Assembly: GCF_003334305.1 (NCBI RefSeq)
Contig: NZ_QOWS01000002.1
Direction: 5' to 3' (one strand)
DNA length: 64,000 nt
DNA from: Escherichia coli
GTDB lineage: Bacteria; Pseudomonadota; Gammaproteobacteria; Enterobacterales; Enterobacteriaceae
Within the stretch, counting starts at the first letter, position 1, and every line of letters starts with the position of its first letter. A program made the position numbers. Positions 51,001 through 54,000 of this stretch are shown piece after piece.

Positions 51001-54000
51001 AGTATCATAAACCCGCAGTTCGATATCACGTAGCAGGGTTAAATTCTGTAAGCCGTTGAGTACCGGTGACAGGCGTTCACACAGCGGGGCGCGGGAATGC
51101 AAACGGCGGTTAGCCTGCCATAAAAATGAGAGGATCTGATTTTTATGCTCCAGCCCGGCGGTTTTCTCCTGAACCCGCTGCTCAAGTACGGCATAACTTT
51201 CGGCCAGTTCTGCAGACATATTGTTCAACGCAGTTCCAAGCATCGCCATTTCGTTGCGCCCGCTGATGTTTGCGCGTTGGGTAAAATCGCGATGACTGAC
51301 GGCACTCGCCATTGCCAGCAGTTGCCGCCACGGTTGTAGCAGTCGCGCCCGCAACCAGATAATAGTGAACACCAGTAAAAGTGCCATAAATACCGCCATT
51401 ACCCGATGGACCAGTACCACTGTCTCGATGCGCATTTCCGTGGTGCGGTCAAAACCAGATACCAGTTGATCAAGCCCGGCAACAAACTGGCTGACATCCG
51501 CTGACACCGTTTCTCGGTTTTGTGCACGCATCAACGCAGGGATCAGTTCATTACGCCAGTAATCTTGTAAACCCTGTAATTGCGCCAGTTGTCCGTCTCG
51601 TTCTGCTGCTCGAGTCAACTCGGCGCTAAATGCCGTTTGTTCCATCTCTTTAATTAAGGGCTTGTCTTTCTCGCTTAATGGCACTGCTGCCAACAGACGG
51701 TAACTTTGCATGCGCAGCGATCCCGCTTTGTTGATCGCATGGGCGCTGCCCTGAACGCCTTGCACCAGCCAGCCAGAAACCGCCATCCCTGCCAGTCCAA
51801 TAGCAGTAGAAAGCAACACAATAAGCGCAACCTGATTAACCAGGGTGAGCGGAGAGAGACAACGTTTAAGCATGTAAACCTCTTCCTTCAGGCTTTAAAT
51901 GAGCAATAACCTTAATGAATGTGACGATACATTCTGGAATGGCAGTATTCTCGGCTATTGGCTGAAGTATACCCATACCCGGAAAGAGTTACTCCTTATT
52001 TGCCGTGTGGTTAGTCGCTTTACATCGGTAAGGGTAGGGATTCTACAGCACCGTGAAAAATCTCATAATTTTTATGAAATCACTGTACTCACTATGGGTA
52101 ATGATAAATATCAATGATAGATAAAGTTATCTTATCGTTTGATTTACATCAAATTGCCTTTAGCTACAGACACTAAGGTGGCAGACATCGAAACGAGTAT
52201 CAGAGGTGTCTATGAGTCACTCATCCGCCCCCGAAAGGGCTACTGGAGCTGTCATTACAGATTGGCGACCGGAAGATCCTGCGTTCTGGCAACAACGCGG
52301 TCAACGTATTGCCAGCCGTAACCTGTGGATTTCCGTTCCCTGTCTGCTGCTGGCGTTTTGCGTATGGATGTTGTTCAGCGCTGTTGCGGTGAACTTACCG
52401 AAAGTCGGTTTTAATTTTACGACCGATCAGCTATTTATGTTGACTGCGCTGCCTTCGGTTTCTGGCGCGTTATTACGTGTTCCATACTCCTTTATGGTTC
52501 CTATCTTCGGTGGTCGTCGCTGGACGGCGTTCAGCACCGGTATTCTGATTATTCCTTGCGTCTGGCTGGGTTTTGCCGTGCAGGATACCTCCACGCCTTA
52601 TAGCGTCTTCATCATCATCTCTCTGCTATGCGGCTTTGCTGGCGCGAACTTCGCATCCAGTATGGCAAACATCAGCTTCTTCTTTCCGAAACAGAAGCAG
52701 GGTGGCGCGCTGGGTCTGAATGGTGGTCTGGGAAACATGGGCGTCAGCGTCATGCAGTTGGTTGCTCCGCTGGTGGTATCACTGTCGATTTTCGCAGTAT
52801 TTGGTAGCCAGGGCGTCAAACAGCCGGATGGGACTGAGCTGTATCTGGCGAATGCGTCCTGGATATGGGTGCCGTTCCTTGCCATCTTCACCATTGCAGC
52901 GTGGTTTGGCATGAACGATCTTGCTACCTCGAAAGCCTCCATCAAGGAGCAGTTGCCGGTACTCAAACGGGGTCATCTGTGGATTATGAGCCTGCTGTAT
53001 CTGGCAACCTTCGGCTCCTTTATCGGCTTCTCCGCGGGCTTTGCAATGCTGTCAAAAACGCAGTTCCCGGATGTTCAGATTCTGCAATACGCTTTCTTCG
53101 GGCCGTTTATTGGTGCGCTGGCGCGTTCTGCAGGTGGTGCATTATCTGACCGTCTGGGCGGAACTCGTGTCACGCTGGTGAACTTTATTCTGATGGCGAT
53201 TTTCAGCGGCCTGCTGTTCCTGACCTTACCTACTGACGGGCAGGGCGGAAGCTTCATGGCGTTCTTCGCGGTCTTCCTGGCGCTGTTCCTGACAGCTGGG
53301 CTGGGTAGTGGTTCCACTTTCCAGATGATTTCAGTGATCTTTCGTAAACTGACAATGGATCGCGTGAAAGCAGAAGGGGGTTCTGACGAACGTGCGATGC
53401 GTGAAGCGGCAACCGACACGGCGGCGGCGTTGGGTTTCATCTCTGCGATTGGCGCGATAGGTGGCTTCTTTATCCCGAAAGCGTTCGGTAGCTCGCTGGC
53501 ATTAACGGGTTCGCCAGTTGGCGCAATGAAAGTATTTTTGATTTTCTATATCGCCTGCGTAGTGATTACCTGGGCGGTATATGGTCGGCATTCTAAAAAA
53601 TAAATCTTAATATTTGATTATCCTTTGCGCGGCATGATGTCGCGCTTTTTTTATGCGTCATTTAGTTACAACATACTCATATTATATGGCTTATTTCGCC
53701 GGATTTCATTAAGAGCCATTAATATGTTACCCATGGGGAATACTCCTTAATACCCATCTGCATAAAAATCTTAATAGTTTAAATAACTACAGGTATAAAA
53801 CGTCTTAATTTACAGTCTGTTATGTGGTGTCTGTTAATTATCCTAAAGGGGTATCTTAGGAATTTACTTTATTTTTCATCCCCATCACTCTTGATCGTTA
53901 TCAATTCCCACGCTGTTTCAGAGCGTTACCTTGCCCTTAAACATTAGCAATGTCGATTTATCAGAGGGCCGACAGGCTCCCACAGGAGAAAACCGATGAG

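What the first reader, a model, noticed from the sequence alone, without database searches (positions are those of the whole stretch)
53728..53904. narG promoter: FNR dyad and a cluster of three far-upstream NarL heptamers
A perfect FNR site TTGAT-cgtt-ATCAA (53891..53904) lies about 90 nt upstream of the narG ATG. Three TACYYMT heptamers (53728, 53741, 53751) sit about 190 to 210 nt upstream of the inferred start, and an inverted heptamer at 53847..53853 sits about 90 nt upstream. The 140-nt spacer between them is AT-rich and is where an architectural bend (IHF-type) would be expected.
Basis: partly seen in the sequence, partly recalled or inferred. Interest (0 to 1): 0.25.

Follow-up and report, generated by a model that had tools for sequence, protein, structure and literature searches.

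The report
Textbook E. coli narG nitrate-reductase promoter
This is the well-studied control region of the E. coli nitrate reductase operon (narGHJI), with its oxygen-sensor (FNR) site, its nitrate-sensor (NarL) sites and the DNA-bending (IHF) site in between; every element sits where published experiments place it, so the finding is correct but ordinary.

Summary
TACCCAT (53728), TACTCCT (53741) and TACCCAT (53751) lie on the + strand, TACCCCT (53847-53853) on the - strand, and the perfect dyad TTGATcgttATCAA at 53891-53904. They lie in the 392-bp narK-narG intergenic region of an E. coli chromosome. This stretch is identical to K-12 from about -290 to the narG ATG, apart from four SNPs.

If the FNR dyad is set at its published -41.5, +1 falls at 53939. 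The heptamer centres then fall at -208, -195, -185 and -89, which matches the published NarL-phosphate footprints at -195 and -89.

The cluster is not chance: three or more heptamers within 30 bp occurred in 2 of 2000 whole-window shuffles and 3 of 20000 intergenic shuffles.

In 27 other Enterobacterales the FNR dyad, the -195 heptamer, the -89 element, a -10 TACCTT and an IHF-like core at -129..-117 are conserved. The spacing from the -195 heptamer to the FNR dyad is fixed at 150-152 bp. The -208 heptamer is Escherichia-specific.

Two corrections. The spacer is 89 bp to the -89 heptamer, or 133 bp to the FNR dyad, not 140. The E. coli IHF core is a poor consensus match (3 mismatches), so a simple scan misses it.

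Already known; low interest.

The parts
53627..53654 (+). narK intrinsic terminator: hairpin GCGCGGCATGATGTCGCGC plus a T-run. It separates narK transcription from the narG promoter.
   Evidence: Terminator scan. It lies 24 nt after the narK stop at 53603.
53728..53734 (+). NarL heptamer TACCCAT, centre -208. This is the distal member of the far-upstream cluster and is specific to Escherichia coli.
   Evidence: It is conserved within E. coli but has 2-4 mismatches in all 25 non-Escherichia orthologues (and 3 in E. albertii).
53741..53747 (+). NarL heptamer TACTCCT, centre -195. This is the core of the published low-affinity '-195 region'.
   Evidence: It has 0 mismatches in 20 and 1 mismatch in 8 of 28 sequences, at a fixed 150-152 bp from the FNR dyad. 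NarL-P footprint at -195 (PMC4549865).
53751..53757 (+). NarL heptamer TACCCAT, centre -185, one helical turn after the -195 heptamer. The conserved block is TACCCCT-TAA-TACC.
   Evidence: The first four bases TACC are well conserved. The full heptamer has 0-1 mismatch in 15 of 28.
53810..53822 (+). IHF core element TTACAGTCTGTTA, centre -123, preceded by an A/T-rich tract. It is a weak consensus match in E. coli (3 mismatches to WATCAANNNNTTR).
   Evidence: In most of the 27 orthologues the best or tied-best IHF match falls in this same register (-129/-130), and 4 of them have 0 mismatches. Published IHF site at -125 (PMC4682653). No match with one mismatch or fewer in the E. coli spacer.
53838..53844 (+). 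Degenerate left half (TTATCCT, 2 mismatches) of a 7-2-7-like dyad whose right half is the -89 heptamer.
   Evidence: The same register carries near-perfect 7-2-7 dyads in Pantoea sp. IMH, Enterobacteriaceae RIT691, Rahnella and Shimwellia.
53847..53853 (-). NarL heptamer TACCCCT, centre -89. This is the published high-affinity '-89' site.
   Evidence: It has 0-2 mismatches with zero register shift in 28 of 28 sequences. NarL-P footprint at -89 (PMC4549865).
53891..53904 (.). FNR dyad TTGAT-cgtt-ATCAA, centred at -41.5 (class II position).
   Evidence: Present in 28 of 28 narG upstream regions: perfect in 25, one mismatch in 3. FNR ChIP-seq peak and -41.5 assignment in Myers 2013.
53927..53932 (+). 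-10 hexamer TACCTT (-12 to -7). It keeps T-12, A-11 and T-7. There is no -35 hexamer; the FNR site overlaps that position.
   Evidence: Read. GCGTTACC.T is conserved in at least 60% of orthologues at this register. The generic sigma-70 scan finds no promoter here, as expected for an activator-dependent promoter.
53939..53939 (+). Inferred transcription start (+1, an A), giving a 57-nt leader.
   Evidence: Computed from the dyad centre (53897.5) plus 41.5, using the published -41.5. Not measured here.
53996..57739 (+). narG coding sequence (nitrate reductase A alpha subunit, 1247 aa), with Shine-Dalgarno AGGAG at 53984-53988.
   Evidence: for the ORF. for annotation of the identical sequence in E. 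coli M8.

Best explanation
This is the promoter of the E. coli respiratory nitrate reductase operon narGHJI. It integrates two signals, absence of oxygen and presence of nitrate.

Under anoxia, FNR binds as a dimer to the dyad centred at -41.5 (53891-53904). It activates as a class II activator, substituting for a missing -35 element. The -10 hexamer is the weak TACCTT.

When nitrate is present, NarX phosphorylates NarL. NarL-P occupies the high-affinity -89 heptamer (53847-53853) and the lower-affinity cluster at -185/-195/-208 (53728-53757). Both regions are needed for full induction.

IHF binds the AT-rich spacer at about -125 (core 53810-53822) and bends it sharply. This folds the far-upstream NarL-P cluster back towards the FNR-RNA polymerase complex.

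Shown here: the presence of the motifs, their non-randomness, their identity to K-12, their conservation, and the fixed spacing. Taken from the literature: FNR, NarL-P and IHF binding and their requirement for activation. Inferred: a U-turn centred at -123 would place -195 opposite about -51, next to the upstream FNR subunit and the usual position of the alpha-CTD.
For: Identity. The region is 100% identical to E. coli M8 and found in 5416 of 5426 genomes between narK and narG. K-12 is identical from -208 to the ATG except for one SNP at -109.

Motifs. All sit at the stated coordinates.

Non-randomness. A cluster of three heptamers within 30 bp arose in 2 of 2000 and 3 of 20000 shuffles.

Positions. 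With the dyad at -41.5 (Myers 2013), the heptamer centres are -208/-195/-185/-89. These equal the published NarL-P footprints at -195 and -89, both required together with FNR and IHF (PMC4549865). IHF is at -125, NarL at -190 and Fnr at -41 (PMC4682653).

Conservation in 27 other Enterobacterales. The FNR dyad is present in all (one mismatch in three of them). The -195 heptamer has 0-1 mismatch in all. TACCCCTTAATACC, CTTTGGTGGTAT, the IHF-like core and the -10 are conserved while the sequence between them is not.

Spacing. The heptamer-to-FNR distance is 150-152 bp everywhere, whereas FNR-to-ATG ranges from 100 to 152 bp.

Negative control. Eleven narZ paralogue upstream regions have no FNR dyad and essentially no heptamers.
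Against: Nothing contradicts it.

Weak points. The E. coli IHF core matches the simple consensus poorly: 3 mismatches, and no hit with one mismatch or fewer in the spacer. The -208 heptamer is not conserved outside E. coli, so its contribution may be lineage-specific or minor. No binding, transcription-start or expression data can be generated with these tools. The original footprinting papers (Li and DeMoss 1987; Dong 1992; Walker and DeMoss 1992, 1994; Li, Kustu and Stewart 1994; Schroder 1993) are not in the held library, so they are cited only second-hand.
Confidence: 0.97

Rival explanations
1. The far-upstream heptamers are chance matches in AT-rich intergenic DNA, or belong to the 3' end of narK. 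On this view only the FNR dyad and the -89 site are functional.
For: TACYYMT is short and degenerate, with 50 matches in the window. The -208 heptamer is not conserved outside E. coli, and a fifth heptamer at -262 is strain-specific.
Against: The cluster arises in about 0.1% or fewer of shuffles. The -195 heptamer is retained in 28 of 28 Enterobacterales at a fixed 150-152 bp from the FNR dyad, amid unconserved flanks. NarL-P footprints at -195 are published and are required for activation. The narK terminator lies upstream at 53627-53654, clear of the cluster.
Confidence: 0.02
2. The upstream NarL cluster acts without a protein-induced bend. For example, NarL-P might oligomerise continuously along the DNA from -208 to -89, or the AT-rich DNA might be intrinsically curved, with the IHF-like element incidental.
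For: The E. coli IHF core is a poor consensus match (3 mismatches). NarL-P also protects 'regions around -150' (PMC4549865). One-mismatch heptamers lie at -153, -147 and -101. The spacer is 73% AT.
Against: An IHF-consensus element sits in the same register (-129/-130) in most orthologues, with 0 mismatches in 4 of them; shuffled spacers give 0 mismatches 0.8% of the time. The literature reports an IHF site at -125 and IHF dependence of activation. The strictly fixed spacing fits a defined loop geometry.
Confidence: 0.05
3. The heptamers serve NarP as well as, or instead of, NarL.
For: NarP and NarL share the heptamer consensus. The -89 site is the right half of a degenerate 7-2-7 dyad (53838-53853), and 7-2-7 is the arrangement NarP needs (7-2-7 preference).
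Against: In E. coli the left half has 2 mismatches, and the literature states that narG lacks 7-2-7 sites (PMC4549865). From general knowledge, narG induction is NarL-specific. The far-upstream sites are direct repeats, not inverted repeats.
Confidence: 0.03

Closest known systems
E. coli K-12 narGHJI promoter (narGp): FNR at -41.5, NarL at -89 and about -195, IHF at about -125
   Same: It is the same locus and essentially the same sequence. From -208 to the ATG there is one SNP (T for G at 53830, -109). All motifs are identical and in identical positions.
   Different: Three further SNPs lie upstream at -249 to -261. One of them creates an extra TACTCAT at 53674. The window's strain lacks the 123-bp ERIC-like element that K-12 carries directly after the narK stop codon, so the intergenic region is 392 bp here against 515 bp in K-12. 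Neither difference touches a mapped regulatory site.
E. coli nir and nrf promoters (FNR class II plus NarL/NarP plus IHF/Fis)
   Same: FNR is at -41.5 and activity is modulated by NarL and IHF.
   Different: At nir and nrf, NarL/NarP binds a single 7-2-7 site near -70 and acts by displacing or counteracting a repressive IHF/Fis. At narG, IHF is a co-activator, and NarL binds non-7-2-7 heptamers as far as about 200 bp upstream.
IHF-assisted looping at sigma-54 promoters, and the sigma-70 GafY-IHF promoters of the Caulobacter gene transfer agent
   Same: An activator bound far upstream is delivered to RNA polymerase by an IHF bend.
   Different: narG is sigma-70-dependent and needs a second, promoter-proximal activator (FNR). 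PMC11150451 calls narG the only other documented sigma-70 case of this kind.

Membership tests
E. coli narGHJI promoter (orthologous identity) | Lies between narK and narG and is sequence-identical, or nearly so, to the K-12 control region | tested here: met
   It is flanked by annotated narK and narG and differs from K-12 by four SNPs between about -290 and the ATG.
FNR-activated class II promoter | TTGAT-N4-ATCAA dyad | tested here: met
   Perfect dyad at 53891-53904. Present in 28 of 28 narG upstream regions.
FNR-activated class II promoter | Dyad centred at about -41.5 from the transcription start, with a -10 element at the matching distance | tested here: inconclusive
   The start cannot be measured here. 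A conserved TACCTT lies at the distance expected for -12..-7, and the literature assigns -41.5.
FNR-activated class II promoter | FNR occupancy and FNR-dependent expression | not testable with these tools
   Literature only: ChIP-seq peak and direct activation of narGHJI (Myers 2013).
NarL-regulated promoter | TACYYMT heptamers in excess of chance | tested here: met
   Five exact heptamers in 392 bp against 0.53 expected. A cluster of three within 30 bp arose in 3 of 20000 shuffles.
NarL-regulated promoter | Heptamers conserved in orthologous promoters | tested here: met
   The -195 heptamer has 0-1 mismatch in 28 of 28. The -89 heptamer has 0-2 mismatches in a fixed register in 28 of 28. The -185 heptamer is partly conserved. 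The -208 heptamer is not conserved outside E. coli.
NarL-regulated promoter | NarL-phosphate footprint and nitrate/NarL-dependent activation | not testable with these tools
   Literature: footprints at -89 and -195, both needed for induction (PMC4549865).
NarL/NarP 7-2-7 site | Inverted heptamers separated by 2 bp | tested here: not met
   The best 16-mer is TTATCCT-AA-AGGGGTA with 2 mismatches, all in the left half. The literature also says narG lacks 7-2-7 sites. Several orthologues do have a good dyad in this register.
IHF-dependent looped promoter | IHF core WATCAANNNNTTR with an A/T tract, located between the distal activator sites and the core promoter | tested here: inconclusive
   In the window there are 3 mismatches at 53810-53822 and no hit with one mismatch or fewer in the spacer. 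Orthologues carry matches with 0-1 mismatch in the same register. Published IHF site at -125.
IHF-dependent looped promoter | Constrained spacing or phasing between the distal sites and the core promoter | tested here: met
   The -195 heptamer to FNR dyad distance is 150-152 bp in 28 of 28, while FNR to ATG varies from 100 to 152 bp.

The most novel reading that the evidence does not exclude
The comparative stack suggests that the ancestral enterobacterial narG control region had two conserved NarL modules at rigid spacing around an IHF core. One is a direct-repeat pair, TACCCCT-TAA-TACC, at -195/-185. The other is a true 7-2-7 dyad centred near -93.5. It is near-perfect in Pantoea sp. IMH, Enterobacteriaceae RIT691, Rahnella and Shimwellia. 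On this reading, E. coli has let the left half of the dyad decay to TTATCCT and has acquired an extra distal heptamer at -208. If so, the often-quoted statement that narG 'lacks 7-2-7 sites' would be peculiar to Escherichia, and narG might respond to NarP in other genera.
Probability: 0.35. Interest if true: 0.25.

Novelty: already known. Interest (0 to 1): 0.07.

Why it matters
As a discovery it matters little. The narG promoter has been dissected since the late 1980s and is a textbook example of signal integration by FNR, NarL and IHF.

Its use here is as a positive control for the scan. A reader without tools recovered a real, experimentally validated regulatory architecture at base-level accuracy.

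The comparative analysis adds small refinements. It shows which heptamers are ancestral (-195, -185, -89) and which is lineage-specific (-208). It shows very rigid spacing of 150-152 bp across the order. It also shows a 7-2-7-like ancestry for the -89 site.

Tried and rejected
1. IHF consensus scan (WATCAANNNNTTR, one mismatch or fewer) over the window. There was no hit between 53758 and 53890, and overall counts were at chance level: 51 against 58 expected. A consensus scan alone therefore cannot locate the E. coli site. Orthologue register and the literature were needed.

2. Generic sigma-70 promoter scan. It found no + strand promoter for narG, only a chance-level minus-strand hit at 53709..53681 (1 found, 1.9 expected). 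This is as expected for an activator-dependent promoter with no -35 element.

3. Original footprinting and TSS papers. Walker and DeMoss 1992, PMC206404, is not held. One search failed on syntax. Positions were therefore taken from later open-access papers.

4. IHF ChIP paper (Prieto 2012, PMC3333857). The main text has no mention of narG.

5. Tandem-repeat search of the window. It returned nothing. The 536-bp periodic heptamer hits at 43.9-44.7 kb are the ldr/rdl long direct repeats.

6. The fifth heptamer at 53674 was rejected as part of the system. It is not present in K-12 or several other strains.

Full report
**What is there**

Reading window 53400-54200 shows the end of a long ORF (stop at 53603), a 392-bp non-coding stretch, and the start of a 1247-aa ORF at 53996.

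A megablast of 53560-54010 against all complete E. coli genomes hits 5416 of 5426 genomes. The match always lies between annotated narK and narG. It is 100% identical in E. coli M8.

The wider annotation of M8 gives the gene order ychO, narL, narX (minus strand), narK, narGHJI, RtT, tRNA-Tyr, purU, ychJ, rssA. The finding therefore lies in the narK-narG intergenic region of an E. coli chromosome.

**Checking the observation**

Every motif is present at the coordinates given:
- TACCCAT at 53728-53734 (+)
- TACTCCT at 53741-53747 (+)
- TACCCAT at 53751-53757 (+)
- TACCCCT at 53847-53853 (-)
- the perfect dyad TTGATCGTTATCAA at 53891-53904

The dyad ends 92 nt before the narG ATG.

The heptamer consensus is loose, with 50 hits in 64 kb against 30 expected. 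The arrangement is not chance, however. Three or more hits within 30 bp occurred in 2 of 2000 dinucleotide-preserving shuffles of the window and in 3 of 20000 shuffles of the intergenic region. The intergenic region holds 5 hits against 0.53 expected.

The spacer is AT-rich: 73% AT between 53758 and 53846, against 49.6% for the window. The gap is 89 bp to the inverted heptamer and 133 bp to the FNR dyad.

**Comparison with K-12 and the published map**

Aligned with a K-12 strain (ER1709), the window is identical from the distal heptamer to the ATG, except for one T/G change at 53830. There are three more SNPs further upstream, at 53678-53692. One of them creates a fifth heptamer at 53674 that K-12 lacks.

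K-12 also carries a 123-bp insertion directly after the narK stop. It looks like an ERIC/IRU repeat and is absent from the window. It lies upstream of everything regulatory.

Published work gives the following positions:
- FNR at -41.5 for narGHJI, with an in vivo ChIP-seq peak (Myers et al. 2013, PMC3688515)
- NarL-phosphate footprints 'centered in the -89 region' (high affinity) and 'the -195 region' (lower affinity), both needed for induction together with FNR and IHF (Katsir et al. 2015, PMC4549865)
[quoted passage not shown] 1993)

The four heptamer centres then fall at -208, -195, -185 and -89, in exact agreement with the footprints. A hexamer TACCTT occupies -12..-7 (53927-53932) and keeps the three most important -10 positions. 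There is no -35 hexamer, as expected for a class II FNR promoter. The generic sigma-70 scan accordingly reports nothing on the + strand.

**Conservation**

One scan of the species-representative genome collection with the first 200 residues of NarG returned 80 loci. Twenty-seven of them, at 86-99% identity, are narG orthologues from Escherichia, Citrobacter, Enterobacter, Pluralibacter, Siccibacter, Shimwellia, Hafnia, Cedecea, Serratia, Pectobacterium, Pantoea, Rahnella and others.

All 27 have an FNR dyad 100-152 bp upstream of the ATG. It is perfect in 24 and has one mismatch in 3.

Stacking the upstream regions without gaps, anchored on the dyad, shows islands of conservation in otherwise unconserved DNA:
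- TACCCCTTAATACC at -198..-185
- an AAAAA...TT..AAA.CA.....TTA pattern around -143..-117
- CTTTGGTGGTAT at -96..-85
- the dyad itself
- TTTCAG.GCGTTACC.T up to -7

Scored per site:
- The -195 heptamer has 0 mismatches in 20 and 1 mismatch in 8 of 28 sequences.
- The -89 heptamer has 0-2 mismatches with no register shift in 28 of 28.
- The -185 heptamer has 0-1 mismatch in 15 of 28.
- The -208 heptamer is no better than background outside E. coli.
- In the control (random offsets), 0.5% of positions had 0 mismatches and 8% had 1.

The distance from the -195 heptamer to the dyad is 150 bp in the window and in most Enterobacteriaceae. It is 151-152 bp in the more distant genera. The dyad-to-ATG distance, by contrast, ranges from 100 to 152 bp. 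Such rigid spacing across unconserved sequence is what a defined loop geometry predicts.

As a negative control, eleven upstream regions of the paralogue narZ have no FNR dyad and a single heptamer in total.

**The IHF element**

A consensus scan (WATCAANNNNTTR, one mismatch or fewer) finds nothing in the E. coli spacer. In the orthologues, the best or tied-best match falls in one register, starting at -129/-130 on the + strand, in most species.

Four species have perfect matches, for example AATCAATAAATTG and AATCAACAGGTTA, and many have one mismatch. Shuffled spacers give a perfect match only 0.8% of the time.

The homologous E. coli 13-mer is TTACAGTCTGTTA (53810-53822, centre -123). It has three mismatches and is preceded by an A/T-rich tract. 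This position coincides with the published IHF site at -125.

The E. coli sequence alone would not have proved it.

**Mechanism**

Steps taken from the literature. FNR, active under anoxia, binds at -41.5 and activates as a class II activator. NarX phosphorylates NarL in response to nitrate. NarL-P binds at -89 and at the -185/-195/-208 cluster. IHF binds at about -125 and is required for NarL-dependent activation.

Inferred step. A U-turn centred near -123 would bring -195 opposite about -51 and -185 opposite about -61. This places the distal NarL-P cluster beside the upstream FNR subunit and the usual position of the RNA polymerase alpha-CTD. It would also bring -89 opposite about -157, close to the 'regions around -150' that NarL-P also protects and to two one-mismatch heptamers at -147 and -153.

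Rivals (chance heptamers, activation without IHF, NarP instead of NarL) are each unlikely for the reasons given in their entries.

**A small refinement**

The -89 heptamer is the right half of a 16-bp element, TTATCCT-AA-AGGGGTA (53838-53853). This is a degenerate 7-2-7 dyad, with both mismatches in the left half.

In the same register several orthologues carry good dyads:
- TACCACT-TT-AGTGGTA in Pantoea sp. IMH (a perfect palindrome)
- TACCCCT-TT-GGGGGTA in Enterobacteriaceae RIT691
- TACCTCT-TT-GGGGGTA in Rahnella
- TACCAAT-TT-AGTGGTA in Shimwellia

The statement that narG lacks 7-2-7 sites therefore holds for E. coli but perhaps not for the order as a whole. I could not check whether this has been noted in earlier comparative-genomics papers.

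**Verdict**

This is the known narG promoter, in a strain whose regulatory sites are identical to those of K-12. It is already known and of low interest, except as a clean validation of the first-stage reading.

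Noticed in passing
window 53603/53604 (junction after the narK stop); L001:645-770: K-12 (ER1709) and some other E. coli carry a 123-bp ERIC/IRU-like repeat immediately downstream of narK. The window's strain lacks it, so its narK-narG intergenic region is 392 bp rather than 515 bp.
   Followed up: partly
L083:3293-4213 (E. coli FDAARGOS_943); corresponds to about window 53851: In this strain an IS1A element is inserted in the narG promoter, at or next to the -89 NarL heptamer. It separates the upstream NarL/IHF sites from the FNR site. It probably alters nitrate induction in that strain.
   Followed up: partly
window 51970-52152: The narX-narK divergent control region holds a perfect FNR dyad, TTGATTTACATCAA (52139-52152), and a one-mismatch dyad (52101-52114). 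It also holds heptamers at 51970 and 51990 (+) and at 52094 (-). This fits the known FNR/NarL-regulated narK promoter (Myers 2013 lists narK at -41.5).
   Followed up: partly
window 61627-61640: A third perfect FNR dyad, TTGATAAGCATCAA, lies inside the purU coding sequence (ORF 61264..62106, minus strand). purU is not mentioned in the main text of the FNR ChIP-seq paper. It is possibly a chance or silent site.
   Followed up: partly
window 44111-44176 and 44647-44712: There are two rdlD-type antitoxin RNAs 536 bp apart, the ldr/rdl long direct repeat type I toxin-antitoxin loci. E. coli M8 has three Ldr toxin genes at this place. The copy number therefore differs, and the window is not strain M8.
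   Followed up: no
window 60842-61104: RtT RNA (60842-60973) and a single tRNA-Tyr (61020-61104) are present. E. coli M8 has the tandem of two tRNA-Tyr genes here, and its purU lies 119 bp further on. The window's strain therefore appears to have lost one copy of the tyrT/tyrV tandem.
   Followed up: partly
window 53838-53853; L010, L020, L028, L029 in the same register: The -89 NarL site is half of a degenerate 7-2-7 dyad in E. coli. It is a near-perfect 7-2-7 dyad in several other Enterobacterales.
   Followed up: yes
window 5415-5493: Rfam match to the sRNA C0299 at 112 bits. It is unrelated to the finding.
   Followed up: no
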